A stretch of DNA of 64,000 nucleotides from Candidatus Latescibacterota bacterium (GTDB lineage Bacteria > Latescibacterota > UBA2968 > UBA8231). The notes under the pieces are model-generated. The model was not told the origin of the DNA. It was given only the letters and a program-made list of their open reading frames with translations, and made no database searches. The position numbers and the translations under genes were made by a program. How positions within the stretch are numbered: the stretch's first letter is position 1; every line of letters starts with the position of its first letter. The stretch is from positions 864,001 to 928,000 of the forward strand of contig OY730476.1 in NCBI GenBank assembly GCA_963422735.1. Reading direction: 5' to 3'. Positions 26,277 through 45,096 of this stretch are shown here, piece after piece.

Positions 26277-27407
26277 TCATCTGAGTGCCGAAACGCCGCC
26301 GCCTTTGAGGGCACGGGCGACTTCCTTTTCAACATCGCCTCGCGTGACCATGGTGGTATCGCCGATGCACTCCTGCACCAAGATGCCGTGGGCGGCCCCC
26401 CACTGCACGGCGTCGGCAGCTCCCCGGCCGTCGAGCAGCGCTGCGACCACGCCCGAGGCAAAGGAATCGCCACCGCCGGTGCGATCGGCGATTTCGATGT
26501 TTTCGCGCACGGCCGCCTCGTAGATTTCGCCCTCCTCGACATCGAAGAGCACCGCGCCCCAGTTAATGCGATCTGCCGTCAGCGCACCGCGCAACTGGGT
26601 GCCAATGTACTTGAGGTTCGGATAGTCATTGGCGACTTGGTGCAGCATCTTGGTGTAGGTCGCCAACCACTGATCAAAGCTGGCGTCTTTGGCCACCTTT
26701 TCGGCTTCGTAGCCCAGCGCGTCGTCAAAGTCGTCTTGGTTGCCGACGAGGAACTCGATGTGCGGCACAATAGCGCGATTGATCTGGCGGGCGCGCTCTT
26801 TGTCCGGCTCGACTTTGGAGCGATAGTTCAGGTCAAAGGAGCGGCCGGCGCCATACTCGCCAGCTTTCTGCATAGCCTCTAGCGCCAGCGCAGCCGTCTT
26901 CTCCGAGAGCAAGGTATAAATCCCGCCGGTGCTAAACCACCGGGTCCCCAACGCGCCGAAGAGATGATTCCAGTCCACATCGCCCGGTCCGATCTCGCGC
27001 ACCGGAGTATGGGCGCGATAGTACTCGGTCACCGAAGGCAATAGGCCCTTGCCAGCCCAAGTGAAGTTGATCCCGTTGTGTAAGGTACCTTTGGCGTCGG
27101 TGCTGAATTGGCCCTTGTCGCCGTTGTCAAACCAGATGATATGCCCGGTGTCCAGCCCAGCCTCGCGCAGTTGGTTTTCGATGTTGCGACCGATCCCGTC
27201 GTCAACGAGGGCCGTGATGACAGCCGCGCGCAAGCCGAAGCAATAGCTTAGGCCCTCGGCGACATTGGTCTCGCCGCCCCCATGCCAGATCCGGGCCGTG
27301 CGCGCCCGAGCCGTGGGCACTTGGCCCGGATCGATGCGCATGAGGACTTCGCCTAGGGCGATGGCGTCGTAGCGCGTCTGGTCTGCTGATTTGAGTTGGA
27401 TGCTCAT
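26277..27407 (-). CDS. PfkB-family sugar kinase (KdgK-like)
   Basis: GGGETNVA, SFDLNYR, DRTGGGDSFASG. Confidence 0.88.
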   Translation of the reverse strand: MSIQLKSADQTRYDAIALGEVLMRIDPGQVPTARARTARIWHGGGETNVAEGLSYCFGLRAAVITALVDDGIGRNIENQLREAGLDTGHIIWFDNGDKGQFSTDAKGTLHNGINFTWAGKGLLPSVTEYYRAHTPVREIGPGDVDWNHLFGALGTRWFSTGGIYTLLSEKTAALALEAMQKAGEYGAGRSFDLNYRSKVEPDKERARQINRAIVPHIEFLVGNQDDFDDALGYEAEKVAKDASFDQWLATYTKMLHQVANDYPNLKYIGTQLRGALTADRINWGAVLFDVEEGEIYEAAVRENIEIADRTGGGDSFASGVVAALLDGRGAADAVQWGAAHGILVQECIGDTTMVTRGDVEKEVARALKGGGVSALR

Positions 27408-27447
27408 GGAACCATTTTCCTCCTTGATTTTTGTATGGTTTTCTCGG

Positions 27448-28326
27448 TCATAGCTGCACCCGCACCCGGCTTTTTTTCTTTAGGGATTTCTCCAACGCCT
27501 CCAGCACCGCCACCGGCCCCAGCATGGTCTGCGCGGTCTCGTCGGTTTTGCCCGTGCGGAACATGGCGCAAAAATCGCGGACGCCGCTTAGATACTGGCT
27601 TTCGTCGAATGTGATCGGCTCGTCGATGCGGCCCTTTTCGCCAATGGCGCTTAGGTGAAAACCGGGAGAAGCACCCCCCACCAAGCTCAGGGTAGCCACG
27701 CAGCCGTCGCGGTAAGTGAGGCTGGCCGTGTGGTTGGCCCCGGCCCCGCGATGGATCTCGGCCCAGCGCATATCCGTGCCGAGCAGGCGCAGCACCATAT
27801 CCACTTGGTGAATGCCATAAAAAAAGACGCCGCCCCATTTCGACTTGATGTCGCAGGGGCCAGTGGCGACCACGGCCTGAATGGGGCCGAGCCGGTGCAT
27901 CTTTTGGGCAAAGGCCCGGTACGAAGCCTGTTTGGGCAACGTCGAAAAAGAACAGACCGGCACACCCAACGCCTCGGCCCGCGCCAAAAAGCGCTCTCCC
28001 TCGGCCTGGCGATAGCAGAACGGCTTGTCGATAAAAAGCGGGATCTTGGCCTCCAGCAGCGGCCAAGCCGCTGGCAGGTGTTCCTTACCGTGGCGATGAT
28101 CGACCACCGCCCCATCGACTTGGCCGATCAGTTCTTCAGGTGTGCGGACAATGTGCGGAATTTGACCAGCGGCCGCAGCGGCTTGCGCGTATTGGGCGGT
28201 CTCGCCCCACACGTGGGTCACCCGCACCCCTCGCACCCTTTTTTCGACATTGAGTACCTTGGCGATAGCTGCTGTGTGGCTGTTTTCCGCCCCGACGATG
28301 CCGATGTTTAGCATCTTATTCCTCAC
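27448..28326 (-). CDS. Gfo/Idh/MocA-family oxidoreductase
   Basis: IGIVGAENSH, FIDKPF, FYGIH. Confidence 0.8.
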   Translation of the reverse strand: MRNKMLNIGIVGAENSHTAAIAKVLNVEKRVRGVRVTHVWGETAQYAQAAAAAGQIPHIVRTPEELIGQVDGAVVDHRHGKEHLPAAWPLLEAKIPLFIDKPFCYRQAEGERFLARAEALGVPVCSFSTLPKQASYRAFAQKMHRLGPIQAVVATGPCDIKSKWGGVFFYGIHQVDMVLRLLGTDMRWAEIHRGAGANHTASLTYRDGCVATLSLVGGASPGFHLSAIGEKGRIDEPITFDESQYLSGVRDFCAMFRTGKTDETAQTMLGPVAVLEALEKSLKKKSRVRVQL

Positions 28327-29303: not shown

Positions 29304-30872
29304 TTGTTCGACTTGATCATTCGCAACGGCACCATCATCGACGGCACCCGCGCCGACCGCTATCCCGCCGATGTCGGCCTCCGCGCCGACCGCATCGCGG
29401 CCATCGGCGACCTCGGCGACACCCAATCACAGCACAGCATTGACGCCCAAGGCAAAATCGTCGCCCCGGGCTTTGTCGATGTCCACAACCACTCCGACGG
29501 CTGGCTCTTGCAGCAGCCCAACTTCCTCCCCAAGACCCTCCAAGGCTTTACCACCGAAGTCCTCATGGCCGACGGCATCTCCTACGCCCCGGTTGACGCT
29601 GCCACTCGCGCCCACTGGCTCTACTACATGCGCGCCCTCAACGGCCTGATGCAAAGCCACTACTCAGGCTGGGAGAGCCTCGCCGACTACATGCAGCTAC
29701 TCGACGGCCGCACTGCGCAAAACACCATCGCCCACCTTCCCTACGCCCACCTGCGAGCCATGGCCTGCGGCTGGGATCGCCGCGTCCCCGACGACGCGCA
29801 GATGGAAGAGATTCTCGCTGGGGTCGAGCGCGGCATGGCCGAAGGCGCGGTCGGCCTTTCGACCGGCCTCGACTACATCGCCGAATGCTTTGCCACCACC
29901 GACGAACTCGTCGAAGCCTGCACCGCTATGGCGGCCCAACAGGGCCTCTACGCCACCCACGTGCGCTACAAAAAGGGCACCCTCGCCGGGGTGCAGGAAG
30001 CCGTCGAAATCGGCCGGCGCGCCGGCGTCCCAGTCCATATTTCCCACTTCAAGGGCACCTCGCCCCAGCAAATCGACGAACTGCTGTCGTACGTGGACCA
30101 AACCGCCGTTCACGAGGTCGATTTCAGTTTTGACGTCTATCCCTACCTGCCCGGCTCGACCATGCTCAACTTCATGTTGCCCTATGAGGTGTGGGAAGAC
30201 GGTCCATTGGGCGTCCTGCCCAAACTCAACGATCCTGCGCTGCGCCGCCGCTTTGCCCGCGTCCTCGACCGCTACGCCAATCCGCTCAACCGGATGACCA
30301 TTGCTTGGCTGCCCGGGCGAGACAACGCCGGCTTTATCGGCCGCACCTTAGACGAATATGTCCAACAGGCCGACGCACCCCCAGCCGACGCGCTTTGCGA
30401 CCTGCTGATCGAAGAAAATTTGGCGGTTCTCCTCGTCTTTCACCACGGAGACGACGCTTTGGTGCATCCCTTCCTGTCGCACGACAAATACATGATGGGC
30501 AGCGATGGGATTTACTTTCCCGACGGTGCGGTTCACCCGCGTTTATACGGGTCGGCTGCTCGCTTGTTGGGACCTTGCGTGCGCGACCACAAGCTCTTCT
30601 CACTCGGAGACGCGGTGTACAAGCTGAGCACCTACCCGGCATCGCGGTTTGGACTTATGCAACGGGGGCAAATCGCCGAAGGCTTCTACGCCGATTTGGT
30701 CGTCTTTGACGCGGAGACTGTTGCGGATCGCGCTACCTACGCCGACCCCCACCAGTACTCGGTCGGCGTCGAGCACGTCCTCGTCAATGGGGTTCCCATC
30801 GTCCGCAACGGATGCGCGGTCGAGAGCTTGGGGCCGACTTGGCCGGGCCGCTACCTGAAGTTCAAGGCCTAA
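29304..30872 (+). CDS. N-acyl-D-amino-acid deacylase (D-aminoacylase family)
   Basis: APGFVDVHNHSD, GLSTGLDY, HISHFK, GSDG, HPRLYG; TTG start after AGGAG. Confidence 0.88.
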   Translation: MFDLIIRNGTIIDGTRADRYPADVGLRADRIAAIGDLGDTQSQHSIDAQGKIVAPGFVDVHNHSDGWLLQQPNFLPKTLQGFTTEVLMADGISYAPVDAATRAHWLYYMRALNGLMQSHYSGWESLADYMQLLDGRTAQNTIAHLPYAHLRAMACGWDRRVPDDAQMEEILAGVERGMAEGAVGLSTGLDYIAECFATTDELVEACTAMAAQQGLYATHVRYKKGTLAGVQEAVEIGRRAGVPVHISHFKGTSPQQIDELLSYVDQTAVHEVDFSFDVYPYLPGSTMLNFMLPYEVWEDGPLGVLPKLNDPALRRRFARVLDRYANPLNRMTIAWLPGRDNAGFIGRTLDEYVQQADAPPADALCDLLIEENLAVLLVFHHGDDALVHPFLSHDKYMMGSDGIYFPDGAVHPRLYGSAARLLGPCVRDHKLFSLGDAVYKLSTYPASRFGLMQRGQIAEGFYADLVVFDAETVADRATYADPHQYSVGVEHVLVNGVPIVRNGCAVESLGPTWPGRYLKFKA

Positions 30873-30873
30873 G

Positions 30874-31392
30874 TTAGAATACATCTGCAAGCGGCATTTT
30901 CCATCCAAGCACCACATCGCCGCCGTCGAGCATGTCGCCTGCGGTGAGAATACAAATATCGTCGGGAGCGCGGTAAACCGCTGCCGTGCGTTGAGGGGGG
31001 TTGATCACAACGACCATCCGAGTGCCTGCCCGCAGCCAGTCGGACACTTTTTCTTCTACTTCGCTGTACCGATCATTTGGCGAAATGACTTCAACGGCGA
31101 GGTCGGGTGCGCCGGGAAAAAAACCTTGATCTTCTGCTGTAGCTTCAGCGCGTTTCCTCGACACAAAGCTGACGTCGGGCGCGGTGTCAATGATGAAGCC
31201 GGTTTCGCCCAAGCCATTTTTTGCAACAAATGCTTCGAGACAGCTACCGATTTTTGCGGCAATGCGTCCGTGTCTTCTGCCAGCGGGTGCCATCTGGCGC
31301 AATTTTCCTTGTACGAGTTCGCAGCGATAGCCATGGTGCGGCATCGCCAGCAACTCATCGGCGGTCATCTGGGCAGCCGTTTGTAGAGCCAT
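30874..31392 (-). CDS. Uma2/DUF820 PD-(D/E)xK nuclease, apparently internally deleted
   Basis: ELVQGKL.QMAPAG..HG, APDVSFV, APDLAVEVISPND. Confidence 0.8.
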   Translation of the reverse strand: MALQTAAQMTADELLAMPHHGYRCELVQGKLRQMAPAGRRHGRIAAKIGSCLEAFVAKNGLGETGFIIDTAPDVSFVSRKRAEATAEDQGFFPGAPDLAVEVISPNDRYSEVEEKVSDWLRAGTRMVVVINPPQRTAAVYRAPDDICILTAGDMLDGGDVVLGWKMPLADVF

Positions 31393-31467
31393 AACAGGAC
31401 CTTTGCTGTTCTGGTTGGGCCTAGAACCCAAGTCAACTCTTCTGCGTCAGCAGAGCATCAAGCCCCT

Positions 31468-31842
31468 TCAGTATTCGCTCGTCGTCCCCCCATTCCAACA
31501 CTCAGCCGTCTCGCCCTTGGGATTGAGAAGCGTGGCCGAGCGCTTGCCCAGCTTGATCCATACGGTCTTACCCACATAGATCCAGCACCAAGAGCAATGC
31601 TCTTTAGGGTCGAGCAACCAGACGGCCCCGTCCGGCAACCGCACCAACAACCGCCCCTCGGCAAAGCGGCGCATCAAGTGCGCTTCCACATAGCTGCCTT
31701 CTGCCAACAGGGCCGCAGCCTTGGGCGAGGGTTCCGGCGCGGGGGCCGGTGCTGAGACGAGCGCGCATCCTCCAGCCAGTAATGCGCCGACGAGGGCACC
31801 GCAGATCCTCCGTACGCGGGAATTACTTGTTACAATATCCAC
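31468..31842 (-). CDS. Small exported hypothetical protein, possible lipoprotein (start uncertain: GTG 31842, 31857 or 31875)
   Basis: RVRRICGALVGALLAGGC signal-like segment, Pro/Ala linker, beta-rich domain with CSWC. Confidence 0.6.
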   Translation of the reverse strand: MDIVTSNSRVRRICGALVGALLAGGCALVSAPAPAPEPSPKAAALLAEGSYVEAHLMRRFAEGRLLVRLPDGAVWLLDPKEHCSWCWIYVGKTVWIKLGKRSATLLNPKGETAECWNGGTTSEY

Positions 31843-31949
31843 GATAAACCTGTCCACAGGTGCAGGTCCCCGCACGCGGGGATTGCTTGATCATCGCCGA
31901 GTGGGAGACCGCCAACCGGATGCAGATCCCCGCACGCGGGGATTGCTTG
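31800..31949 (+). CRISPR. CRISPR-like mini-array: 3 repeats, 2 spacers of 31 nt; repeat differs from the main array
   Basis: TGCAGRTCCCCGCACGCGGGGATTGCTTG at 31861-31889 and 31921-31949 (1 mismatch); degenerate copy CGCAGATCCTCCGTACGCGGGAATTACTTG at 31800-31829; spacers 31830-31860 and 31890-31920 are unrelated. Confidence 0.7.
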
Positions 31950-32035
31950 GCATACAGTTTGCGACATTCTTCCACACTCCTTATCATCAGATCAATTAAC
32001 ATATTGACGACAACCCTACACAAGACAGAGCATTC

Positions 32036-34645
32036 ATGGACTACGCGAATTTGTTGCTGGTCTATCTCCACGATCCGGTCGATAAGGCCCTCGACATCCG
32101 CAAGCACGAATCCCGCGCTGCCCGCTATGCTTCCCGGGCCCGCGGCTGGGACGCGACCCGCCGAGAAATCAAGCATTCGGCTCAGCTAGCGGACCCACTC
32201 GCCGCCATCGCCGACCGCATCCCCATGCCGACCGCGGGCCGCAATGGCGAGCGTGCCATCGGTCCGGAAGACGGGAAGATCGAGGTACGCCATCCGGTGA
32301 GCGCACAAGAGTACGTGCTGACCGGACTGGCCCTCGACGAGAACCGCGTACTGGATATTATCGGCTCTATCGTGGACGACCTGCCCGACGATCCGCGCAC
32401 GCGCTTTCTCGCACTCTGGCGGCTGCTGCCCGAAAAGCTCGGTCTGCAGTTCGCCCTGCTGCCGGCCGACACCCGCGTCCCCGACCACACTCTGATCCAG
32501 CACACGGGCATCACAAGCGGCCTTTGGGCTAGTGATGGAGCGCGCGGCCGCGCGTACCTGTCGCTGTCGCTCGGGCCGGTGCAGACATTCATTGCCGCCG
32601 CCCGCAGCGTACGCGACCTGTGGTCGGGAAGCGCCATTCTGTCGTGGCTCGTCTTTCAGGGCATCCGTCCGGTACTCGACAAACTCGGCCCGACTGCGCT
32701 CGTCTATCCAGCCTTGCGCGGCAATCCGCTGATGGACCTGTGGCTGCGCGAGCAGAATGGCTTGGAGGACATCGCACCGCTTCCGTCGAAGGAATCGCGC
32801 CGGGCACCGTCCATTCCCAACCGCTTTGTCGCGCTCGTACCGTGGGGGACGGACGGCGCGGATGCACACGCCATGGCGGATGATTGTGTAGAGGCGGTCC
32901 GTGCGGCTTGGCGGTGCCTCGCGGACGATGTGCGCGGCAGCCTCAACCCGACGTTATCGGGCATCGATCCCGGTTGGGCGCGCCGTTGGCAGGAACAGGT
33001 GGACCGCTTTTTTGAGTTGAGGATAGCTACCCTGCCCGAGCGCGACCTAGACGACAAGACCTTGGCCAAACTGATCGGCGGCGATAACTCGTTTGACGAC
33101 GTGTGGCCGGAGGCCGCCAAGGTGCGCGGGCTGGCCGACGCGATTCCATCGGCCGAGCGTCCCGGTTACGACCAATGCTCGGCCGGGCGCTGGCAGGCCC
33201 AGCTTGAAGCCTCAGCGCGGCTGATGGAAGCGCAGCGCTCCATTCGCCATGTCCCAAACACCCTGCAAGCCGCGTCGGGCGAACCTTCACCACCCAAGTG
33301 CAGCCTGCTCGGCTCCTATGAGCAAATGGGGCCGGCGGCTCTCGACGATTCGCGCGGCTTCTGGGAAGAGGCTGCTGCGAAACTTTCTGTAGAAGGCGTT
33401 CGACTGCGCACTGGTGAGCGCTTTTCCGCGGTCGCATTGTGCAAGCGGTTTGCGGCTCCGGCGACACTCGCCAAAGAGCTTCACCTCACACCGTCCGACT
33501 TGCGGTTCCCTGACACCGCGACCGTCGCCGCCGCGGAATGGTTGCACGACGCGGGTATCAACGCGAACGCGGTCCGGCGTGAACACGGCGACTGGAACGG
33601 ACGCTGGCTTCACCAAAAACGGCGGGATGACGTGGAGAAGGGCGACAAGTACCCGCCGGAGGTGGTTTGGGAGAAGATCAACGCGGCACGGAAGAAGAAT
33701 TCGCCTCCCTCCTACTACGCCGTCCTGGCCATGGATGCGGACCACATGGGCCACTGGCTCAAGGGCGACCACGCCCCCAAGGTGCGCGAGGTGCTGCACC
33801 CGAAGATGGTCGATTACTATGAGCAGGTTAACAGTGAGAAGGCCAGGGAGGGCCTTGATGCGAAGCGACCGGTCGGGCCGGCCCTGCACGCCTCCATCAG
33901 CGAAGCCCTCAACAATTTTGCCAGTCACGTTGCCCCCGGTATTGTGGAAGAGCACAAGGGCACGATGATCTACTCGGGCGGTGACGACGTCCTAGCCTTG
34001 CTGCCGGCGCGTCGAGCGGTCAATTGCGCGGCTGCCCTGCGCCGTGCGTTTCGCGGTGAGGACGGATCTGTACCCGGCTGGACGGAGAGAGACGGCCGCC
34101 AACTTCTGGTGATGGGCAATCGGGCCACCCTGTCCGCGGGTATTGCCGTCGTCCACTTCATGGAGGATCTGCGGTTGGCCTTGGGCGCTGCGCGCGACGC
34201 AGAGAAGGCGGCCAAGAACTCCGGACGGAACTGGCTGACGTTGCGCTTCATGCGCCGTTCCGGAGAGCATTCCGAGGCCGGTCTGTCGTGGGCGCTGGCA
34301 CAGTGGTTCCGAGAGTTGATCGCGATCTTCGCCGGCGGAGCTACGGACCGTTGGGCCTATCGGCTGCGTCAGGAACTACCGACCTTGCAAGCCCACGGCC
34401 TTCCCGAAGCGGCTGTGAGCGCCGAGATACGCCGTCTCGTGGACAGGACGATGGACGGTGCCGCATCGGATTCAAGCGGCCCGTCGGGTAAAGACGCGGA
34501 GCAGTGGTGGCGGGACTTTTCCGGCGCCGTTCTCCGGCATTCGAGGGAGAGCCAACGGGAGATCCCTACCCAGGCAAAGCGTCTTGAGACGTTCACCCTT
34601 TTGTGTCAAGGGGCGTCGTTCGTAGCGCGAGGTCACGATGGCTGA
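32036..34645 (+). CDS. cmr2: Type III-B Cas10/Cmr2
   Basis: LHDP..K N-terminus, LPADTRVPDHTL..H, GPVQTFIAAARSVRDLWSGS, YYAVLAMDADHMG, IYSGGDDVLA. Confidence 0.95.
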   Translation: MDYANLLLVYLHDPVDKALDIRKHESRAARYASRARGWDATRREIKHSAQLADPLAAIADRIPMPTAGRNGERAIGPEDGKIEVRHPVSAQEYVLTGLALDENRVLDIIGSIVDDLPDDPRTRFLALWRLLPEKLGLQFALLPADTRVPDHTLIQHTGITSGLWASDGARGRAYLSLSLGPVQTFIAAARSVRDLWSGSAILSWLVFQGIRPVLDKLGPTALVYPALRGNPLMDLWLREQNGLEDIAPLPSKESRRAPSIPNRFVALVPWGTDGADAHAMADDCVEAVRAAWRCLADDVRGSLNPTLSGIDPGWARRWQEQVDRFFELRIATLPERDLDDKTLAKLIGGDNSFDDVWPEAAKVRGLADAIPSAERPGYDQCSAGRWQAQLEASARLMEAQRSIRHVPNTLQAASGEPSPPKCSLLGSYEQMGPAALDDSRGFWEEAAAKLSVEGVRLRTGERFSAVALCKRFAAPATLAKELHLTPSDLRFPDTATVAAAEWLHDAGINANAVRREHGDWNGRWLHQKRRDDVEKGDKYPPEVVWEKINAARKKNSPPSYYAVLAMDADHMGHWLKGDHAPKVREVLHPKMVDYYEQVNSEKAREGLDAKRPVGPALHASISEALNNFASHVAPGIVEEHKGTMIYSGGDDVLALLPARRAVNCAAALRRAFRGEDGSVPGWTERDGRQLLVMGNRATLSAGIAVVHFMEDLRLALGAARDAEKAAKNSGRNWLTLRFMRRSGEHSEAGLSWALAQWFRELIAIFAGGATDRWAYRLRQELPTLQAHGLPEAAVSAEIRRLVDRTMDGAASDSSGPSGKDAEQWWRDFSGAVLRHSRESQREIPTQAKRLETFTLLCQGASFVARGHDG

Positions 34646-35720
34646 CGGTGATACTTTGCTCCGGCTGGAGATTGAGCCCGTCGATACGCTGTTCTTCCGC
34701 GACGCGCGGCCGTTTGAAGCGGCCAGCCGCGGAGCATCGGGTTTGCCCATGCCGCAGACCCTGACCGGTGCCGTGCGCAGCCTGCTACTGGAGCGGCACG
34801 GGGTGGATTTTAGGCGGCTGGGAGAACAGATGAAGAACGGGGCATCCTTTGCCCAAGCACTCGCCGAGTTCGGCCCTGAAGCCAGGGCTGTGGCTGACGT
34901 GCGGGTACGCGGCCCTTATTTCACGCTGTGCGGTGAGGTGCTGGTTCCAGCTCCGGCCAGCCTGAGACGAGAGAAGAAAACCGGAAAGCTCGTGCGAATC
35001 GACCCGCTCAAAACCCCACTGCCCGGTTGGCGACCAGAAGCTCAGGAGATGCGGCCGCTGTGGCGGCGTGGCCGGGAAGCCGTTGAAGCGGCGGATGGGT
35101 TCCTCAAGCCATCGGGCCTGCGCTGCTTCCTCAACGGAGACGTGCCGGACCCGGACGCATTGGTGCCACAAAAAGAAGTCTATGAATTTGACGACCGCAC
35201 CGGCATCGGCATTGACCCTAAGAGCAACGCCGCGGCCGAAAGTCTCATCTATGCCGTCAGTATGCTGGTGCTACGACCCAAAGCCGGCCTTTACGCCGAG
35301 GTGCGCGGCCCAGTTGACGCCTTGACCCCGCTTATTAAAACGAAAGACGAGCCGATCCTCATGCGCTTGGGCGGCGAAGGCCGGCATGTCGTCGTCCGCT
35401 CCAACGGTCAAGGCGCGGACTGGCCGGCGATTCCGCCCGTCTCGAACACGGGCCGGCTAGTGCTCCTGACCACGCCGGCCTATTTCAACGGCTGGAAACC
35501 GCCGGCATTCGAGCCGGTCGCCGCGGCTGTCGGCAACGGTCAAGCTGTCTCCGGCTGGGACTTGGCCCAAGGCGGCCCCAAGCCCAATCGCTTCATGGTG
35601 CCGGCCGGATCGGTCTATTTCTTGCAACCAAACGCCCCAAGCCCAGCCGAATTGGTCGCTGACGAAGACGCGAGCGTCGGCTGGGGCTGCTTTCTGGAGG
35701 GAAACTGGAACTATGTCTGA
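34638..35720 (+). CDS. cmr3: Type III-B RAMP Cmr3
   Basis: IEPVDTLFFRDARPF, RTGIGID, RLGGEGR, LTTPA, VSGWDLA..GPKP, VPAGSVYF. Confidence 0.93.
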   Translation: MADGDTLLRLEIEPVDTLFFRDARPFEAASRGASGLPMPQTLTGAVRSLLLERHGVDFRRLGEQMKNGASFAQALAEFGPEARAVADVRVRGPYFTLCGEVLVPAPASLRREKKTGKLVRIDPLKTPLPGWRPEAQEMRPLWRRGREAVEAADGFLKPSGLRCFLNGDVPDPDALVPQKEVYEFDDRTGIGIDPKSNAAAESLIYAVSMLVLRPKAGLYAEVRGPVDALTPLIKTKDEPILMRLGGEGRHVVVRSNGQGADWPAIPPVSNTGRLVLLTTPAYFNGWKPPAFEPVAAAVGNGQAVSGWDLAQGGPKPNRFMVPAGSVYFLQPNAPSPAELVADEDASVGWGCFLEGNWNYV

Positions 35721-36612
35721 CAAAACCTTGCTGTTCATTCACGCCCTGACCGGACTCCATCCCGGCAGCGGCACCGCCCTCGGCGTGGTCGATCTGCCGG
35801 TGCAGCGCGAGCGCCACACCGACTGGCCGACCATCCCCGGCTCGTCGCTCAAGGGCGTGATGCGGGCCGAATGCGCGAAGAATAACGAACAGAATGAAGA
35901 TGTCTTAACGGCATTCGGGTCAGCGACCAGTGCTGCGTCTAACCACGCCGGCCACGCCGGCGCGGTCGCTTTTTCAGACGCACGTATTCTCGCTTTCCCG
36001 GTGCGCTCACTGACCGGGGTGTTTGCTTGGGTGACGTGTCGCGACGTGTTGGACCGGTTTTCACGCGATCTCGGGCTTATCGGCGAAAACGACTTCCCGG
36101 CGGTTCCCGCGGTCGAGAAAGACAAAGCCGCCTGTGTCGAGCACAGCCCGCTGCTGGCGCACGACGGGTGCCTGATGTTGGAAGAGTTCGAGTTCTCGCG
36201 TGGTGGAGACGCACAGGAAATTGCGGACTGGATCGCAGCGCGGGCCGTGGAAGACGCCGGCACGGAAGACAGGCTGCGCTCGCATCTGGCCGTCCTCCAC
36301 AACGACGATTTCAACCACTTCGTCCGCAATGCCACCGAGGTGGTAGCTCGCGTCGGGCTTGACTCCGCAACAAAGACCGTGCGCACGGGCGCACTCTTCT
36401 ACGAGGAATACCTGCCGGCCGAGACCCTCTTTTACTCGCTGGTGATGTGCAGTGATAGCCGGCGCGAGCCACACACTAAGAGCGCGGCGGAGATTCTCGC
36501 ATGGCTGCGCCACATAGCACCCAAGTCTCTGCAAATCGGCGGCGGCGAGACGGTCGGCAAGGGCTTTTGCGCGGTTCGCTTTGACGGCACGGCAAGGGAG
36601 ACAGCGCGATGA
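35713..36612 (+). CDS. cmr4: Type III-B RAMP Cmr4 (target RNase)
   Basis: LHPGSG...VDLPVQRERHT.WP.IPGSSLKG (catalytic Asp present), LFYEEYLP.ET, QIGGGETVGKG. Confidence 0.95.
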   Translation: MSDKTLLFIHALTGLHPGSGTALGVVDLPVQRERHTDWPTIPGSSLKGVMRAECAKNNEQNEDVLTAFGSATSAASNHAGHAGAVAFSDARILAFPVRSLTGVFAWVTCRDVLDRFSRDLGLIGENDFPAVPAVEKDKAACVEHSPLLAHDGCLMLEEFEFSRGGDAQEIADWIAARAVEDAGTEDRLRSHLAVLHNDDFNHFVRNATEVVARVGLDSATKTVRTGALFYEEYLPAETLFYSLVMCSDSRREPHTKSAAEILAWLRHIAPKSLQIGGGETVGKGFCAVRFDGTARETAR

Positions 36613-37022
36613 GCGACAACCGGCCCACCCTTGACCAACGTCGTGCGCAACACGCTTGGCAAGCCGTTGAACGCGCCCGCAACCTAAAGGATTCCAACGA
36701 CTTTGCCCGCGAGGCCAAACGTTTACCGATTCGCATCAAAACCGCCGGCCTAGGGCAGGCCCTCGCCTTCCTCCACGCCAAGGGGAAGGACGGCGAAGAC
36801 CATCGCAGTCAGTTGCTAAAGGAACTAGGCGATTGGATCCTGAAGGAGCGCAAATTGGCGGCTCACTCGCCGTGCAAGGACGCCCTGCTGCAAGCCATCA
36901 TCAACGGCAACGCCAACCTACTGCGCCGCGCCACCGAAGAAGCCCTGCTCTACTTGCAATGGCTGACCCGGTTCAGCGAGGCCGAACTCGGGACTGGAGA
37001 GGATGTGAGCGATGGCTCGTAG
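36609..37022 (+). CDS. cmr5: Type III-B small subunit Cmr5
   Basis: TLDQRRAQHAW, LPIRIKTAGLGQALAFL, ATEEAL.YLQWL.RF. Confidence 0.93.
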   Translation: MSDNRPTLDQRRAQHAWQAVERARNLKDSNDFAREAKRLPIRIKTAGLGQALAFLHAKGKDGEDHRSQLLKELGDWILKERKLAAHSPCKDALLQAIINGNANLLRRATEEALLYLQWLTRFSEAELGTGEDVSDGS

Positions 37023-39327
37023 CTCCAGCCGTCCCCAACGCCGGGCGCATACCATGCCAGCCCCCAGAGCCGACCAACTTCTCGCAGGGCCGATTCTGCC
37101 CCAGCCCACGCGCAAGCTGATCGAGAAGGTTCGGGTCGAGTGTCGCCATGCCGGTCTGCAACTCGACAAGCTGTCGCCTGTAGGTGATGGTACGATGGAG
37201 GACCAGAAAGATGCCCTAGTCAAGGTACGCCAAACGCTCCGGGACGAGCCGCTGCTCAAAAACCTCCTCGATCGCCGCCGCGCCATGCTCCATTCGCTCG
37301 GTGCAGCGCGTCTCCCAATGACCACACGCGGCCCCTTGACCCTGCACCTGTCTCGGTCAGGCGCGTTAGAGAACGCCGGCATTGCCCTGCACCCCGTCTA
37401 TGGCTTCGTGTATTTGCCCGGCAGCGGCATCAAGGGTTTGATCCGCGCCTATGCCGAGACCGTGTGGGCGGCGGCTCAGCCCAACGAAGAGCAGGCGTGG
37501 CGGCGGATCGAAGAAGCCTTCGGCTGGAGCCCCGGGTCGGAGCGTCATAAGAAGGATTGGCGGCCGGGCGAAATAGAACCACAGCAAGACGCCGCGGCCG
37601 GCCGGCTAGTGTTTCACGACGCTTGGCCGACCCGCTGGCCCCGCCTGATCCTCGACGTCGTCAACAACCACCACGTCAAGTACTACGCGGGCGAAGACGA
37701 CCCCGGCGACTGGGAAGACCCGACCTTGGTCTATTTTCTCGCCCTTAACGGAGGCGAGAAGTTCGAGTTCGCAATCTCCGACCGTAAGCCGAACGATGAC
37801 GGCCTGCTGAAATTGGCAAGCGGCTGGCTAAAAGACGCGCTGACTGCCGAGGGTGCTGGCGCCAAGACCGCAGCCGGCTATGGCCGCTTCAAGCCGGCTG
37901 AAGGCCAAACTTCCGGGACACTCTCGCCCGATTTCACCAAGGCCGGTTTTGCCAGCGCGAGCTTTGACTTGAAGCTCGCCACCCCAGCCTTTCTCGCCGG
38001 TGCCGATCAGAAACGAGAGGACTGCGACCTGCGCCCGGCCACCCTGCGCGGCCTGCTGCGCTGGTGGTGGCGCACTATGCACGCGGCCCATCTCGACCGG
38101 GATTCGCTGAAGAAGCTGGAGACTGCGGTGTGGGGCGACGCGGAAGCGGGTAGCCCGATGCGGATTGCGGTGGACAATGTCAAAGTTGGAGAGCCAGAGC
38201 AGTACAATAAGAACGATCCACAATTCCAGTCCTTGCCGAGACCATCGCACGGGCAGCAAGTCACTCAGGGCTTATTCTACGCTTCTTACGGCATGGCAGA
38301 ACGCCACAAGCGTTGGTTTTGTCCTGACAGATCGCTTTGGCGCATAACCCTGACGGCCCGGCGCGGTTATTTCCAAAAAAATAAAAAAGACCCTGCTATC
38401 CTCCTTCCGCCCGACCAACTCTTGGAACAGGCCGCGGCGACCCTGTGGCTGCTGTGTCGCTTTGGTGGCGCAGGCTCGCGGTCGCGCAAGGGCTTTGGGT
38501 CCTTTGACGATATTGAGGTTGAGGGCATCGGATCGAAAGAGGACTGCATCGCATCGGCAAAGCGGTTGCGACAGCATTGCAAACTAGATGGACAACAAAG
38601 TCAGCCTGTCAAAGCACCCTCTTTAGAGGAGGCTCTGATTCTGGAACAGCGCACAGAGTGGACCAACTCTTGGTATGCGCTTGATCAAACCGGAATGGTA
38701 CTCCAACGGTTCGCCAAATCAATGAACGCCGAAGACCGGATTCCGCTCGGCCTGCCGCGCCGAGTGGGTCGAAGCCCCGATGCACGGAATCTCAAGGCTA
38801 AAAAAGGAGAGCGGTACGCCTCCCCGGCCCTTTGGAGCCTCGCGACGTGCAAAGACGGGACCCTGCTGGTCCGTCTGATCGCGTTCCCCGCTGCCTACCT
38901 GCCCGACAAGCACACCAGCAAGGCGACGCTCCAGAAACTCATTGCGTCTGCGCGGCAGGAATTGAGACAGCAAGCCCAGCAGTCCTCGCGCACAGGCGGG
39001 CGAGGCCGCGGACCGTCAGGCCCCAGAGCAGATCTCCCGAAAGCAAATGAGCGCGTCCAAGCTGAACTCTTAGAGGAGAAGACGAAGAAAGGCGGCTGGA
39101 AGGCCAAACACGTGGACAGCGGTTTACAAGGCCCGATACAAGACCCTCAGAATACGCCCGCCGACGCCGAGCCGGGCCAGTGCGTCGAACTTACGGTCGC
39201 CTATGTACGCGAGAAGGAAATGGGGTTCAAATGGGCCGCACCGCCGCCCAAAAAGAAAGTACCCGCCCAAGGCGGCGGTCGGAGACAGGGCGGCAACCCA
39301 AACTCCCGCTTGGGGAGACAACCATGA
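37012..39327 (+). CDS. cmr6: Cmr6-Cmr1 fusion RAMP with an additional C-terminal domain
   Basis: Cmr6 part: YLPGSGIKG, FHDAWP, DVVNNHH..YY, GAGAKTAAGYG. Cmr1 part: LATPAFLAGA, LRPATLRGLLRWWWR, FGGAGSRSRKGFGS. Then a tail of about 110 aa. Confidence 0.88.
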   Translation: MARSSSRPQRRAHTMPAPRADQLLAGPILPQPTRKLIEKVRVECRHAGLQLDKLSPVGDGTMEDQKDALVKVRQTLRDEPLLKNLLDRRRAMLHSLGAARLPMTTRGPLTLHLSRSGALENAGIALHPVYGFVYLPGSGIKGLIRAYAETVWAAAQPNEEQAWRRIEEAFGWSPGSERHKKDWRPGEIEPQQDAAAGRLVFHDAWPTRWPRLILDVVNNHHVKYYAGEDDPGDWEDPTLVYFLALNGGEKFEFAISDRKPNDDGLLKLASGWLKDALTAEGAGAKTAAGYGRFKPAEGQTSGTLSPDFTKAGFASASFDLKLATPAFLAGADQKREDCDLRPATLRGLLRWWWRTMHAAHLDRDSLKKLETAVWGDAEAGSPMRIAVDNVKVGEPEQYNKNDPQFQSLPRPSHGQQVTQGLFYASYGMAERHKRWFCPDRSLWRITLTARRGYFQKNKKDPAILLPPDQLLEQAAATLWLLCRFGGAGSRSRKGFGSFDDIEVEGIGSKEDCIASAKRLRQHCKLDGQQSQPVKAPSLEEALILEQRTEWTNSWYALDQTGMVLQRFAKSMNAEDRIPLGLPRRVGRSPDARNLKAKKGERYASPALWSLATCKDGTLLVRLIAFPAAYLPDKHTSKATLQKLIASARQELRQQAQQSSRTGGRGRGPSGPRADLPKANERVQAELLEEKTKKGGWKAKHVDSGLQGPIQDPQNTPADAEPGQCVELTVAYVREKEMGFKWAAPPPKKKVPAQGGGRRQGGNPNSRLGRQP

Positions 39328-39400
39328 CATCCCCCAACAGCGACCACAAGTCCCTCGTCCGCCCGTCGGCACCAGCGATATTGAAAACCCGCTTAACCCA
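39324..39400 (+). pseudogene. Frameshifted relic of the 5' end of a CARF effector gene
   Basis: ATGA overlap with the cmr6 stop. MTSPNSDHKSLV/(1-nt loss)/VGTSDIEN aligns with MTSTNTSKKALVLTVGTGNVND of the gene at 40202. Confidence 0.5.
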
Positions 39401-39455
39401 ATGCCTAGAGACCCCCTTCTCTGCATCATTGGAAATGCGATTGGAGGATGCCACT

Positions 39456-40205
39456 ATGGAGGTTGCACACTCATTTGCCGATGAACAAAAAAGAACCCCG
39501 AATGCTCCAACCGGCGAGCAAGGCTCGTCCGCTGCGGCTACTCTGCCGCCCCCATTGGAAAACGGCGATCGGCTCACGCGGGAGGAGTTTGAGCGACGCT
39601 ATGAGGCCATGCCCGACGTAAAGAAGGCAGAACTGATCAATGGAGTCGTATATATGGGTTCACCTGTTCGCTTTCGTGGTCATGGCAGACCGCACGTTCT
39701 ACTGCTCACTTGGCTAGGGATGTATAGTGCGCTCACGCCCGGGGTTCTTTGTGCGGATAACACCACAGTTCGCCTCGGGGCAGATAGCGAGCCGCAACCG
39801 GATGTCTTGCTGCGCCTAGAGCCAGAAACGGGTGGAAATTCGCGGATTAGTGCAGACGATTATGTGGAAGGCGCACCAGAGTTGTTGGCCGAAATCGCGG
39901 CTAGTAGTGCCTCGTACGATATGCACGATAAAATGGACGTCTATCGCCGCAGCGGAGTACAGGAATATCTCGTCTGGCGCGTGTACGACGAGCAGATTGA
40001 CTGGTTCGCTCTTCGTGACGGTGTGTACATCCGTCTGAGGCCCGATGAGTCTGGCGCGATTTCCAGTCGGGTATTTCCGGGGCTGCGGTTGTCCCTGTCC
40101 GCATTGTTGATGGGCAATGCGGCTCAGGTCGTGGCCGAGTTGCAGAAAGGACTGGGGACGGCCGAGCACACCGCGTTTGTCACCCGCCTCGGAGAACATA
40201 GATGA
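39456..40205 (+). CDS. Uma2/DUF820 PD-(D/E)xK nuclease inside the cas operon
   Basis: LENGDRLTREEFERRY, AELINGVVYM.SP, QPDVLL, PELLAEIAASS, GVQEYLVW; RBS GGAGG at 39443; frame is open back to ATG 39324. Confidence 0.87.
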   Translation: MEVAHSFADEQKRTPNAPTGEQGSSAAATLPPPLENGDRLTREEFERRYEAMPDVKKAELINGVVYMGSPVRFRGHGRPHVLLLTWLGMYSALTPGVLCADNTTVRLGADSEPQPDVLLRLEPETGGNSRISADDYVEGAPELLAEIAASSASYDMHDKMDVYRRSGVQEYLVWRVYDEQIDWFALRDGVYIRLRPDESGAISSRVFPGLRLSLSALLMGNAAQVVAELQKGLGTAEHTAFVTRLGEHR

Positions 40206-41533: not shown

Positions 41534-41544
41534 GGAGCAGCGTC

Positions 41545-42582: not shown

Positions 42583-42593
42583 GGAGCGTTGCT

Positions 42594-42881
42594 ATGTCTC
42601 ATTATGTCGTCTGCTACGATGTGGTCGATAACCGCCGCCGCTACAAGGTGGCCGCTTGTCTGGATGCCTATGGCGACCGCGTACAGGACAGCGTGTTTGA
42701 ACTGCCGATTGATCGGGCGTTTTTGGACAAGTGCATCGCCGAACTGGCAGGTTTGATCGATGCGGACAAAGACAACATCGCCGTCTATCGCCTCTGCGCT
42801 GCTTGCGCGACCGAGCGTTTCTATCTTGGGACGGGCGAAGAGGCCATGCGCATCGGAGATGAGAAGGTCTTTATTGCCTGA
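42594..42881 (+). CDS. cas2: CRISPR-associated Cas2
   Basis: YVVCYDV..NRRR.KVA..L..YGDRVQDSVFE, D.I.VYRLC..C. Confidence 0.95.
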   Translation: MSHYVVCYDVVDNRRRYKVAACLDAYGDRVQDSVFELPIDRAFLDKCIAELAGLIDADKDNIAVYRLCAACATERFYLGTGEEAMRIGDEKVFIA

Positions 42882-43078
42882 GTGTCATTCGTAACCATTG
42901 CTCCCTCCACAAACGAGCGGAGGTTACGAATTTGACTAACCCGTTGAATTTCTTACTTTTATGCTTCACGCACTCACACGGACGCCACCTTGGCAATCAG
43001 CTTTTGCACTTCCACCCACTGGGTTACGAAAAACGTCCCAGCAAAGCCTTGTGAGACAGGCAGATAGCTGGCACAGGG
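42882..43078 (+). promoter_or_regulatory. CRISPR leader
   Basis: Relatively AT-rich 197 bp between cas2 and repeat 1, with repeated GGTTACGAA motifs. Confidence 0.75.
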
Positions 43079-44124
43079 GTGTGAAGTGCTGCCCCGCTTA
43101 TCAGGGGATTGAAACGAGAGAAGAGTCAGTTTCTCTCTCCACCGCGGAGTGGTGTGTGAAGTGCTGCCCCGCTTATCAGGGGATTGAAACGGATAGGGCG
43201 GCGTGCTCAATGACGTTCGTCATGCCATGCCCGGTGTGAAGTGCTGCCCCGCTTATCAGGGGATTGAAACTCAAGCTCAAGCCGAAAATCAAGGCGTTTG
43301 ACCTTAACCACTTCAGTGTGAAGTGCTGCCCCGCTTATCAGGGGATTGAAACTCTGCAATAGCCTCCCAGTCTTTTGTTCCCAGTGCTAGGGTTCGTGTG
43401 AAGTGCTGCCCCGCTTATCAGGGGATTGAAACCGGAAACTTCGCGTCGTTGGCCAACGCCAACGCCAGGGCGGTGTGAAGTGCTGCCCCGCTTATCAGGG
43501 GATTGAAACGAGAGCTTCCTGACGCTCGGCGTTATCGCGAACTTCGTGTGAAGTGCTGCCCCGCTTATCAGGGGATTGAAACCTACTAATGCCGGATCTT
43601 TCAATCCAGCAAGAAATTCGTGTGTGAAGTGCTGCCCCGCTTATCAGGGGATTGAAACTGGCGGCCCATCAGATATAGAATCCGCGAGTGAAAAATCGGT
43701 GTGAAGTGCTGCCCCGCTTATCAGGGGATTGAAACCTCCTCGGGGTCGGCCAGGTAACGGACTTCGTCGCCGCGGTGTGAAGTGCTGCCCCGCTTATCAG
43801 GGGATTGAAACTTGATATCGCCGGCTTGCTCGGAATCGATTTCAAGCGCGCGGTGTGAAGTGCTGCCCCGCTTATCAGGGGATTGAAACATACTGTGCGT
43901 TGTTCATCTGTGTGCTCCCTTGCGTTGGGTTGGGTGTGAAGTGCTGCCCCGCTTATCAGGGGATTGAAACCTTATCTTGTCTTCGCTCCATAATTCCAGG
44001 CAAGCTTTCCGTGTGAAGTGCTGCCCCGCTTATCAGGGGATTGAAACCTTATCTTGTCTTCGCTCCATAATTCCAGGCAAGCTTTCCGTGTGAAGTGCTG
44101 CCCCGCTTATCAGGGGATTGAAAC
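43079..44124 (+). CRISPR. CRISPR array: 14 identical 37-nt repeats, 13 spacers of 36-45 nt
   Basis: GTGTGAAGTGCTGCCCCGCTTATCAGGGGATTGAAAC starting at 43079, 43154, 43234, 43316, 43396, 43473, 43546, 43622, 43699, 43775, 43853, 43934, 44011, 44088; ATTGAAAC 3' end gives the orientation. Confidence 0.99.
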
Positions 44125-44186
44125 AAAACCGTAGAGGCCGCCCCTATGGCTACCCTAACCATTCCTTTTCTTGTAACTTCCCCTTT

Positions 44187-45023
44187 ATGGATTGGCGCGA
44201 CTTCCTCAAATTCCTGCTCTCTGGTGTTCAGATAAAAGCGTGGCAACTACGGCTGGAAACGCCCGAAGTCCAAGCGACTACGCCGATGTTGCGGGGCGTC
44301 TGGGGACGGGCATTGCGGCATTTGGACGAGAAAGCGTATCGACGGGTATTCACCGGCGACCCACTAGGGCACCGGCGCATCCTCCGCTACATCCTGCGGC
44401 CGGCACCGCCCGACCCAGCCACCGCACCGGCCATTGAGTGGATCCTGCTCGGCGTAGAAGAGCACTTAGAGGACGTGTTATGGCGGGCTTGGGATGTGGC
44501 GGCCGGCATGGGGCTGGGGCCGCAGCGCGTACCATTCCGCATCCGAGCGCGGCTGCCGCTGGGCGCAGACTGCTGGAACCTAGCCGCTGCAGACTGGCCC
44601 CTGCCCGGCTGTCCGGCCACCACCCCCTGCCGCCTCCATTTCCCTACCTCCGTGCGCTTGCTCCGCCGCGGACACCTACTCACCGCTCCCAATGCAGAGG
44701 ACCTAGCCAAAGCGGCTGTGCGCCGCATCGCCGGGCTAGCGGGCATAACCGGTGGAGCCGATTATAGCTACTTAATACAGGCCGTCAGTCAACAGGCCGC
44801 CGGCCTAGAAGCCGCCCTTTGGCGCGGGCAGCGGCTCGACTTTGTGCGCTGGTCCGCTAGCCAACAGCGAGAGCTGAACATGCACGGCGTGGCCGGCGAT
44901 TTAAGTCTTCCGACCGGCCTCGGCCCACTCTGGCCGTTATTCGCCGCCGCTTGCTGGACCCACATTGGCAAAGGCACGATCTTTGGGCTAGGCCAACTAC
45001 ACATCACAAAAAATGGCGAGTAA
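44187..45023 (+). CDS. cas6: CRISPR pre-crRNA endoribonuclease Cas6
   Basis: MLRGVWGRAL, C-terminal G-loop HIGKGTIFGLG; directly after the array. Confidence 0.87.
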   Translation: MDWRDFLKFLLSGVQIKAWQLRLETPEVQATTPMLRGVWGRALRHLDEKAYRRVFTGDPLGHRRILRYILRPAPPDPATAPAIEWILLGVEEHLEDVLWRAWDVAAGMGLGPQRVPFRIRARLPLGADCWNLAAADWPLPGCPATTPCRLHFPTSVRLLRRGHLLTAPNAEDLAKAAVRRIAGLAGITGGADYSYLIQAVSQQAAGLEAALWRGQRLDFVRWSASQQRELNMHGVAGDLSLPTGLGPLWPLFAAACWTHIGKGTIFGLGQLHITKNGE

Positions 45024-45096
45024 AGAGCAGCCCCTTGCTGAAGAAGGAACCTCTCTACTCGCCATCTTTTAATGCATTGCGTACCGGCCGCGCTGC

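What the first reader, a model, noticed from the sequence alone, without database searches (positions are those of the whole stretch)
31800..31949. Second, divergent-repeat CRISPR-like mini-array directly upstream of cas10: candidate crRNA-like regulator of a type III-B system
Seen: three palindromic repeats at 61/60-bp period (two 29-mers differing at 1 nt; a first copy matching 25/29 with a 1-nt insertion) separate two unrelated 31-nt spacers and end 86 bp before the cmr2 ATG. The repeat differs from the 37-nt main repeat but shares its architecture: a CCCC...GGGG stem followed by exactly 8 nt starting ATTG (ATTGCTTG vs ATTGAAAC), the geometry that gives a Cas6 8-nt 5' handle. In that orientation the most degenerate repeat is the first one, the opposite of a normal adapting array. 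Known: mini-arrays with degenerate repeats next to cas operons encode CreA/CreR-type regulatory or antitoxin RNAs in DNA-binding systems such as type I. The 29+31 geometry and stem also resemble type I-E repeats. Inference: this is either a regulatory guide cassette for an RNA-targeting Cmr complex, which I do not know to be characterised, or an orphan relic of another CRISPR type. I found no second match to either spacer in this window by eye.
Basis: partly seen in the sequence, partly recalled or inferred. Interest (0 to 1): 0.85.

Follow-up and report, generated by a model that had tools for sequence, protein, structure and literature searches.

The report
Orphan I-E-like mini CRISPR array
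Three repeats and two spacers just upstream of a type III-B CRISPR operon are real, but they look like a stranded leftover of a different (type I-E-like) CRISPR array and not like a new kind of regulator.

Summary
Three copies of a 29-nt hairpin repeat (R1 31800-31829 degenerate, R2 31861-31889, R3 31921-31949) separate two unrelated 31-nt spacers and end 86 nt before cmr2. The repeat core matches the 29-nt type I-E repeats that fill large arrays in 10 of 30 other genomes of the genus. This genome has no Cas6e or Cas7e and only the III-B-linked cas1.

The repeat occurs nowhere else in the 4.95-Mb genome. It was not found in 167 other genomes of the phylum, in 4 further genomes carrying the closest cmr2, in viral contigs, or as an array in metagenome contigs. 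None of 7 related III-B loci has a mini-array upstream of cmr2.

Neither spacer matches the III-B locus better than shuffled spacers, and neither has a significant match in the genome, phages or plasmids. The only sigma-70-like promoter on the cmr2 strand lies downstream of R3. R1 and spacer 1 lie inside the 5' end of a conserved minus-strand lipoprotein gene.

Best reading (about 0.6): an orphan relic of a I-E-like array at the edge of the III-B island. The regulatory-guide reading is unsupported but not excluded. One unexplained point: in one public run, spacer 2 alone differs at 8 positions.

The parts
31800..31829 (.). R1, degenerate repeat (30 nt). It also encodes, on the minus strand, the n-region codons of the lipoprotein signal peptide.
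   Evidence: 25/29 identity plus a 1-nt insertion against R3. Hairpin lost. Overlaps ORF 31468-31875(-).
31830..31860 (.). Spacer 1 (31 nt, 42% GC). It contains the in-frame GTG codons at 31842 and 31857 of the minus-strand lipoprotein ORF.
   Evidence: No genome match longer than 13 nt.
31861..31889 (.). R2, intact 29-nt hairpin repeat.
31890..31920 (.). Spacer 2 (31 nt, 65% GC). This is the only part that differs in run X7.
31921..31949 (.). R3, intact 29-nt hairpin repeat.
31950..32035 (+). AT-rich (41% GC) 86-nt stretch between R3 and cmr2. It holds the only sigma-70-like site found on the + strand (TTGCGA at 31959, 17-nt spacer, TATCAT ending 31987).
   Evidence: No homologue in 167 genomes of the phylum or beside I-E arrays of relatives.
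31468..31875 (-). Conserved lipoprotein-like gene (lipobox LAGGC). The ATG of relatives is GTA here, so the likely start is GTG 31842, inside spacer 1.
32036..34645 (+). cas10/cmr2, first gene of the type III-B operon (GGDD at residue 648). cmr3, cmr4, cmr5, a cmr6-cmr1 fusion, a Uma2-domain gene, a CARF-HEPN gene, cas1 and cas2 follow, up to 42881.
43079..44124 (+). Main III-B array: 14 identical 37-nt repeats ending in ATTGAAAC.
44187..45023 (+). cas6 (Pfam CRISPR_Cas6, E 2e-10), the only Cas6 candidate in the locus. The hit was obtained on the longer frame 44118-45023; the ATG at 44187 is read.

Best explanation
This is an orphan fragment of a type I-E-like CRISPR array: three repeats and two spacers. 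It has lost its cognate cas genes and sits at the left edge of the type III-B island, joined to the 5' end of a conserved lipoprotein gene. It most likely has no dedicated role in the Cmr system. R1 and spacer 1 now serve as the start and the signal-peptide n-region of the lipoprotein ORF. R2, spacer 2 and R3 lie in the divergent promoter and 5'-UTR region between that gene and cmr2. Shown: the anatomy, the I-E-like core, the absence of I-E cas genes, uniqueness in the genome, lack of conservation in relatives, and lack of a self-target. Inferred: origin by loss or truncation of a longer array, present non-function, and the GTG 31842 start.
For: 1. The core TCCCCGCAC-GCGGGGAT, the 29-nt length and the 60/61-nt period match I-E arrays. 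Cas7e is over its cut-off in 10 of 30 other genus genomes. In 6 of 7 fetched I-E regions there are arrays of 24-153 repeats with period 61, with 29-nt repeats such as ATGTTCCCCGCACACGCGGGGATGAGCCG read from 3 of them. The best partial match among 72,556 plasmids is a I-E array beside cas3.
2. No Cas6e or Cas7e match in the single-contig 4.95-Mb genome, and one cas1 only, of a non-I-E kind.
3. This genome holds another decayed system, cas3 plus cas5c plus a 4-repeat array, so CRISPR decay does occur in it.
4. The repeat is found only here: 1 of 31 genus genomes, 1 of 168 phylum genomes, 0 of 4 further cmr2-bearing genomes.
5. 0 of 7 related III-B loci have a mini-array upstream of cmr2. Two of them share a different conserved promoter region, which a third shares in part.
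6. Spacer matches to window 30800-45100 are no better than for shuffled spacers: 7 to 86 of 100 shuffles reach the observed value.
7. The + strand promoter-like site lies downstream of R3.
8. R1 overlaps conserved coding sequence and has lost its hairpin.
9. A published survey judged mini-arrays near type III loci to be degraded repeats (passages read).
Against: R2 and R3 are still 28/29 identical and fold strongly, which a long-abandoned relic need not be. They share at least 10 differences from the genus I-E repeat (a loop 2 nt shorter, and tag ATTGCTTG instead of ATGAGCCG). So the source was not the I-E variant now seen in relatives, and no array with this exact repeat was found anywhere. 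The repeat reaches no Rfam CRISPR-DR family (best 14.6 bits against a gathering score of 35). In run X7 all 8 listed differences over about 144 nt fall in spacer 2, while both repeats are unchanged. Plain neutral decay does not predict this. No RNA data could be examined, so non-function is inferred and not shown.
Confidence: 0.6

Rival explanations
1. It is a working second array for the III-B system. It would be transcribed on the + strand and cut by the locus Cas6 (or another RNase) at the base of the hairpin, giving crRNAs with an AUUGCUUG tag that load into Cmr and target foreign RNA.
For: It lies next to cmr2. Two near-identical, strongly folding repeats are kept. Exactly 8 nt follow the stem, and they start ATTG as in the main repeat. 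Spacer 2 differs between populations while the repeats do not, which could reflect spacer turnover. Cross-type use of crRNAs by III-B systems is known from the literature (recalled, not checked here).
Against: Only 4 of the 8 tag bases match the system's own tag, and the hairpin differs from the weakly structured main repeat. No + strand promoter-like site lies upstream of R1; that stretch is the antisense of a coding gene. R1 cannot form the hairpin, so spacer 1 would lack a normal 5' cut. The only cas1 is of a kind that serves 37-nt repeats (inference). The array is absent from all 7 related III-B loci. No protospacer was found in phages, plasmids or 167 related genomes.
Confidence: 0.13
2. 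It is a crRNA-like regulator (CreR/CreA-type) that guides Cmr to a host transcript, such as the cas operon mRNA or a toxin mRNA, through partial complementarity.
For: Its position directly upstream of the first effector gene is where CreR genes lie in I-B, I-E and V-A systems (abstract start in the listing and passages read). R1 is degenerate. The array is identical in two other studies' runs, X6 and X8.
Against: Neither spacer matches window 30800-45100 better than shuffled spacers. The best genome-wide matches are 13-18 nt, with E 0.28 or worse. The array is not conserved in 7 related loci. It has two spacers between near-perfect repeats, not one pseudo-spacer between two degenerate repeats. 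In X7 the spacer varies, although a regulator should keep it. Type III does not occur in the CreR preprint (0 occurrences), and the survey found no targets and no conservation for type III mini-arrays.
Confidence: 0.05
3. It is not a CRISPR derivative in function. The two identical palindromes would be protein-binding sites or RNA hairpins in the divergent promoter and 5'-UTR region, controlling the lipoprotein gene and/or cmr2.
For: The region lies between two divergent genes. Transcription of the lipoprotein ORF has to start to the right of 31842-31875, so it probably runs through at least part of the array on the minus strand (inference). The palindromes are unchanged in X7 while the sequence between them varies.
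Against: The copies are identical over 29 nt including non-palindromic flanks. They keep CRISPR spacing and share the core of genus I-E repeats. Only 8 palindromes of the generic CCCCGC...GCGGGG type exist in the genome, and none of the others shares the flanks. Relatives express the same gene without these elements.
Confidence: 0.1

Closest known systems
Type I-E CRISPR arrays, as found in other genomes of the same genus (G001, G004, G008, G011, G021) and on Streptomyces plasmid NZ_CP108991.1
   Same: 29-nt repeat, period 60-61, the CCCCGC...GCGGGG stem with T before and AT after it, 8 nt after the stem, and unrelated spacers of about 31-32 nt.
   Different: The hairpin is 2 nt shorter. The 3' tag is ATTGCTTG and not ATGAGCCG or ATGGTCCC. 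The 5' flank differs. There are only 3 repeats. No Cas6e, Cas7e or I-E cas1 is in the genome. No Rfam CRISPR-DR family is reached.
Degraded mini-arrays flanking type III loci (survey preprint 10.1101/2023.03.03.530964, passages read)
   Same: A mini-array outside but close to a type III cas operon, with no conserved position in related genomes and no detectable target. That survey concluded such arrays are degraded, non-functional repeats.
   Different: The survey's mini-arrays were detected by likeness to the locus's own repeats and lay close to the CRISPR array. This one has a foreign (I-E-like) repeat and lies at the opposite end of the operon, directly before cmr2. The survey's supplementary files were not seen.
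CreR/CreA cr-like regulatory RNAs of type I-B, I-E and V-A systems (preprint 10.1101/2023.03.10.532045; abstract start in the listing and passages)
   Same: A small CRISPR-derived cassette just upstream of the effector operon, with one degenerate repeat.
   Different: CreR has one pseudo-spacer with 11-15 consecutive bases matching a PAM-flanked site in the cas promoter, and it works through a DNA-binding effector. Here there is no such match, there are two spacers, the repeats are intact, and the effector targets RNA.

Membership tests
CRISPR array (generic) | Three or more direct repeats of 23-47 nt at a regular period, separated by unrelated spacers of similar length | tested here: met
   Three repeats of 29-30 nt, period 61/60, two 31-nt spacers that do not align.
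CRISPR array (generic) | Spacers traceable to mobile elements | tested here: inconclusive
   No significant match in 50,697 phage records, 72,556 plasmid records or 167 related genomes. IMG/VR and metagenomes were not searched for the spacers.
Type I-E repeat family | 29-nt repeat with a CCCCGC/GCGGGG stem and 8 nt 3' of it; about 61-nt period | tested here: met
   Alignment to genus I-E repeats and to a Streptomyces I-E array. The hairpin is 2 nt shorter.
Type I-E repeat family | 3' tag of the I-E kind (ends in CCG or CCC in the I-E arrays examined here) | tested here: not met
   The tag is ATTGCTTG, against ATGAGCCG in the genus repeats read and ATGGTCCC in Streptomyces.
Type I-E repeat family | Cognate I-E cas genes (cas6e, cas7e, I-E cas1) in the genome | tested here: not met
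   No match for TIGR01907 or TIGR01869. There is a single cas1, which scores 23.5 bits on the I-E model against a cut-off of 215.6.
Rfam CRISPR-DR families | Score at or above a family's gathering threshold | tested here: not met
   The best is CRISPR-DR28 at 14.6 bits against 35, E 9.3.
CreR/CreA cr-like regulators | Pseudo-spacer partly complementary to the cas (or toxin) promoter or transcript nearby | tested here: not met
   The best runs are 9-11 nt and the best ungapped matches 18-19/31 in window 30800-45100. These values are reached by 7-86 of 100 shuffled spacers.
CreR/CreA cr-like regulators | Conserved position in related cas loci | tested here: not met
   0 of 7 related III-B loci. 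However, the closest cmr2 is only 75% identical.
crRNA source for the resident III-B complex | 8-nt 5' tag identical to that of the system's own repeats | tested here: not met
   ATTGCTTG against ATTGAAAC, 4 of 8.
crRNA source for the resident III-B complex | Transcription and Cas6 processing of the array | not testable with these tools
   No RNA holder was listed.
REP-like dispersed palindromes | Many copies spread over the genome | tested here: not met
   Only the two copies here at up to 3 mismatches. There are 8 generic CCCCGC...GCGGGG palindromes genome-wide, and no other one has these flanks.

The most novel reading that the evidence does not exclude
The mini-array is an expressed guide cassette for the RNA-targeting Cmr complex. 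The I-E-style hairpin would be cut to leave an AUUG-initiated 8-nt tag, and one guide (spacer 2, which alone varies between populations) would direct Cmr to a host or mobile-element transcript not represented in the collections searched. That would make it the first cr-like regulator, or cross-type array, described for a type III-B system.
Probability: 0.06. Interest if true: 0.75.

Novelty: new member of a known kind. Interest (0 to 1): 0.2.

Why it matters
If the relic reading holds, this is an ordinary by-product of CRISPR-Cas turnover. It is a small documented case of a foreign-type array fragment left at the border of a type III island. There is a minor curiosity: a decayed repeat and a spacer now supply the start and signal-peptide codons of a conserved lipoprotein gene. 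It would matter more only if RNA data showed processing and Cmr loading, because no cr-like regulator is reported for type III in the two papers read here.

Tried and rejected
A fuzzy-regex scan of the whole genome timed out. It was replaced by blastn-short.

RNA evidence: no RNA holder was listed for window 30900-34700. Run X11 is only guessed to be RNA. Its contigs lie at 32008-32160 and further into cmr2, and none covers the mini-array. Nothing can be concluded on expression.

A single palindrome (TCCCGCGCCCGCGGGAAT) lies in the lipoprotein-cmr2 spacer of L022. I considered it as a solo repeat remnant. It scores 12 of 29, no better than another chance hit in the same locus, and it has no second copy, so I did not count it.

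I considered that the repeats arose by duplication of the lipoprotein 5' region. I rejected this because the spacers are unrelated, and because relatives align to the window only up to about the second ATG.

The metagenome scan with a degenerate repeat pattern found 4 contigs, each with one isolated hairpin. Three of them carry the same sequence. None is an array. The viral contig scan gave 0.

Phage and plasmid blastn gave best E values of 0.03-0.1, which I treat as chance. Rfam gave nothing at gathering level. The 86 nt after R3 show no likeness to the flanks of relatives' I-E arrays.

Not done:
- Spacer searches in IMG/VR and in metagenomes. The pattern tool takes typed letters only, and each spacer adjoins a stretch I had already typed, so I left this out.
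- A broad scan of all GTDB genomes for the repeat.
- Supplementary files of the two preprints, which were not seen. Supplementary files 3 and 5 of 10.1101/2023.03.03.530964 may hold per-locus data on type III mini-arrays.

Full report
**What is there.** The sequence at 31800-31949 holds three copies of one repeat.
- R2 (31861-31889) and R3 (31921-31949) are 29 nt, 28/29 identical, and start 60 nt apart.
- R1 (31800-31829) matches R3 at 25 of 29 positions with one inserted base.
- The 23-nt core occurs twice in the window, against none in 100 shuffles.
- The two 31-nt spacers do not align with each other.
- R2 and R3 fold into a stable hairpin (-15.1 kcal/mol; z -2.8 and -3.4). R1 no longer does (-3.2 kcal/mol, z +0.64).
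- R3 ends 86 nt before the ATG at 32036.

**Context.** The downstream genes form a complete type III-B locus:
- Cas10/Cmr2 (32036-34645; TIGR02577 E 1e-68; GGDD present)
- Cmr3, Cmr4 and Cmr5
- a Cmr6-Cmr1 fusion (37012-39327)
- a Uma2-domain protein
- a CARF/HEPN Csm6-like protein
- Cas1 and Cas2
- an array of 14 identical 37-nt repeats (43079-44124)
- a Cas6 (Pfam PF10040)

The main repeat ends in ATTGAAAC and forms only a weak 4-bp stem (z -0.42). The mini repeat shares CCCCGC, GGGG and ATTG with it but is otherwise different.

**Kind of repeat.** The core of the mini repeat is that of type I-E repeats.
- Cas7e is present above its cut-off in 10 of 30 other genomes of the genus, and in 20 of 168 genomes of the phylum set.
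- I fetched 7 I-E regions. Six hold arrays of 24-153 copies at a 61-nt period. Repeats read from three of them are 29 nt, such as ATGTTCCCCGCACACGCGGGGATGAGCCG.
- The best partial match among 72,556 plasmids (E 5, not significant in itself) is a I-E array beside cas3 on a Streptomyces plasmid. Its repeat is CTGCTCCCCGCACGCGCGGGGATGGTCCC.
- The mini repeat differs from these by a loop 2 nt shorter, another 5' flank and another 8-nt tail (ATTGCTTG).
- It reaches no Rfam CRISPR-DR family (best 14.6 bits against 35).

R2 and R3 share all these differences. The source was therefore a distinct I-E-like repeat variant, and not a decayed copy of the variant seen in relatives.

**No cognate system, no other copies.**
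- The genome is one contig of 4.95 Mb (completeness estimate 95%).
- It gives no match for Cas6e or Cas7e, and it has one cas1, that of the III-B locus.
- The repeat core, at up to 3 mismatches, occurs only at the two places here. blastn-short finds nothing else.
- Only 8 palindromes of the generic type exist genome-wide, and none of the others has these flanks. It is not a REP-like family.
- A second decayed system exists elsewhere in the genome: cas3, cas5c and a 4-repeat array with no further cas genes identified nearby.

**Conservation.**
- The core was not found in 30 other genus genomes, 167 other phylum genomes, or 4 further genomes carrying close cmr2 genes.
- It was not found in viral contigs. 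In metagenome contigs it was not found as an array; there were 4 contigs, each with one isolated hairpin.
- Seven loci with a cmr2 68-75% identical were fetched. None has a repeat-like hairpin, a match to R3 above 12 of 29, or any CRISPR-spaced direct repeat upstream of cmr2.
- Three genus genomes (G006, G007, G018) have cmr2 next to the same lipoprotein gene as here. In two of them the spacer before cmr2 carries a different, mutually conserved promoter region, which the third shares in part.
- The closest cmr2 is only about 75% identical while the flanking genes are 90-94% identical. The cassette here has therefore probably been exchanged, and truly close relatives are not in the collections.
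- Among public runs, contigs from two other studies (X6 at 31630-32094, X8 at 31715-32151) are identical to the window.

**Test of the regulatory reading.**
- A CreR/CreA-type RNA needs a pseudo-spacer partly matching a nearby promoter or transcript.
- Against window 30800-45100, on both strands, the best ungapped matches are 18-19 of 31 and the longest runs are 9-11 nt. These values are reached by 7 to 86 of 100 shuffled spacers.
- Genome-wide, the best matches are 13-18 nt with E 0.28 or worse.
- The only sigma-70-like site found in 31600-32200 is on the + strand at 31959-31987. That is downstream of R3 and 49 nt before cmr2. The likely cmr2 promoter therefore does not transcribe the array, and nothing promoter-like precedes R1.
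- The survey preprint 10.1101/2023.03.03.530964 (passages) reports mini-arrays near 10-14% of type III loci. It found no positional conservation and no targets, and judged them degraded repeats.
- The CreR preprint (abstract start and passages) covers I-B, I-E and V-A and does not mention type III.

**Overlap with a gene.**
- The minus-strand ORF 31468-31875 encodes a lipoprotein-like protein (lipobox LAGGC).
- Its gene matched in all 24 genus genomes drawn.
- In 13 relatives' loci translated, its N-terminus is conserved, typically MSALTTMRKLRGAVVCAVLIGGC.
- The nucleotide alignment with relatives holds up to about the second ATG of that N-terminus. There the window has GTA (31813-31815), inside R1. 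Upstream of it the relatives' codons, ribosome-binding site and promoter are replaced by R1's other half, spacer 1 and R2.
- The only in-frame start codons are GTG at 31842, 31857 and 31875.
- R1 and spacer 1 are therefore now coding sequence if the gene is still expressed. Its transcription has to start to the right of them, probably running through part of the array on the minus strand. This last step is an inference.

**Orientation is unresolved.**
- For the + strand: the loop asymmetry and the 8-nt tail agree with the I-E forward orientation.
- For the minus strand: the degenerate copy would be the last one, an AT-rich flank (41% GC) would be the leader, and the lipoprotein gene needs a transcript in that direction.

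**Unexplained.** In run X7 the single contig covering about 31838-31981 shows 7 substitutions and one inserted base. All of them lie in spacer 2 (31902-31920). R2, R3 and the flanks are unchanged, and neighbouring X7 contigs differ from the window by 0.3-1.6%. A spacer that is 24/31 identical in the same slot is neither ordinary inheritance nor an unrelated new spacer. It keeps a small probability alive for spacer turnover or a selected function.

**Verdict.** The structure is real and CRISPR-derived. The best-supported reading (about 0.6) is an orphan fragment of a I-E-like array at the edge of the III-B island, partly absorbed into the neighbouring gene. Rivals are a working extra array for Cmr (0.13), non-CRISPR use of the palindromes in the divergent promoter region (0.10) and a cr-like regulator (0.05). 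It is a new member of a known kind, and interest is low.

Noticed in passing
window 31468-31875 (-): A conserved lipoprotein gene has lost the ATG, ribosome-binding site and first codons seen in 13 relatives' loci. It can start only at GTG codons inside spacer 1 or R2, so a decayed CRISPR repeat and a spacer appear to have been taken over as coding sequence for its signal peptide.
   Followed up: partly
window 31890-31920, in run X7: Spacer 2 alone carries 7 substitutions and a 1-nt insertion in one public run, while both flanking repeats are unchanged.
   Followed up: partly
window 30874-31431 (-): A Uma2-family (PD-(D/E)XK-like) gene lies between the amidohydrolase and the lipoprotein gene. 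In the 14 related loci compared (13 genomes) those two genes abut, so it is an insertion in this genome. A second Uma2 domain is fused into a 341-aa ORF inside the III-B operon (39180-40205).
   Followed up: partly
window 37012-39327 (+): A single 771-aa ORF combines Cmr6 (residues 121-294) and Cmr1 (321-499) matches, so it is a Cmr6-Cmr1 fusion.
   Followed up: no
window 43934-44124: The last two spacers of the main III-B array are identical (TRF period 77, 100% match). All 14 repeats are perfect, with no degenerate terminal repeat.
   Followed up: no
genome G000:C1:3166090-3169447 (L042 6090-9448): Remnant of a type I-C-like system: cas3 (788 aa), cas5c (262 aa) and a 4-repeat array with a 37-nt repeat ending in ATTGAAAC. 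No cas8, cas7 or adaptation genes were identified nearby.
   Followed up: partly
genomes G001, G004, G008, G011, G021 (loci L050-L054): Very large type I-E arrays (up to 153 repeats in 15 kb) occur in several genomes of the genus. G000 has none.
   Followed up: partly
window 270-2415: Tandem repeats of 264-276 nt (up to 4.6 copies, 79-94% matches), probably repeated domains of a large protein.
   Followed up: no
genome G000:C1, e.g. 27344-27661, 193535-193689, 1157612-1157760, 1442864-1442967: Tandem arrays of 7-nt units (AGTGGTT, GACCACA, CCACTGA, ACCACTA; 15-45 copies) lie at several genome sites, and related 14-nt units at 980053.
   Followed up: no
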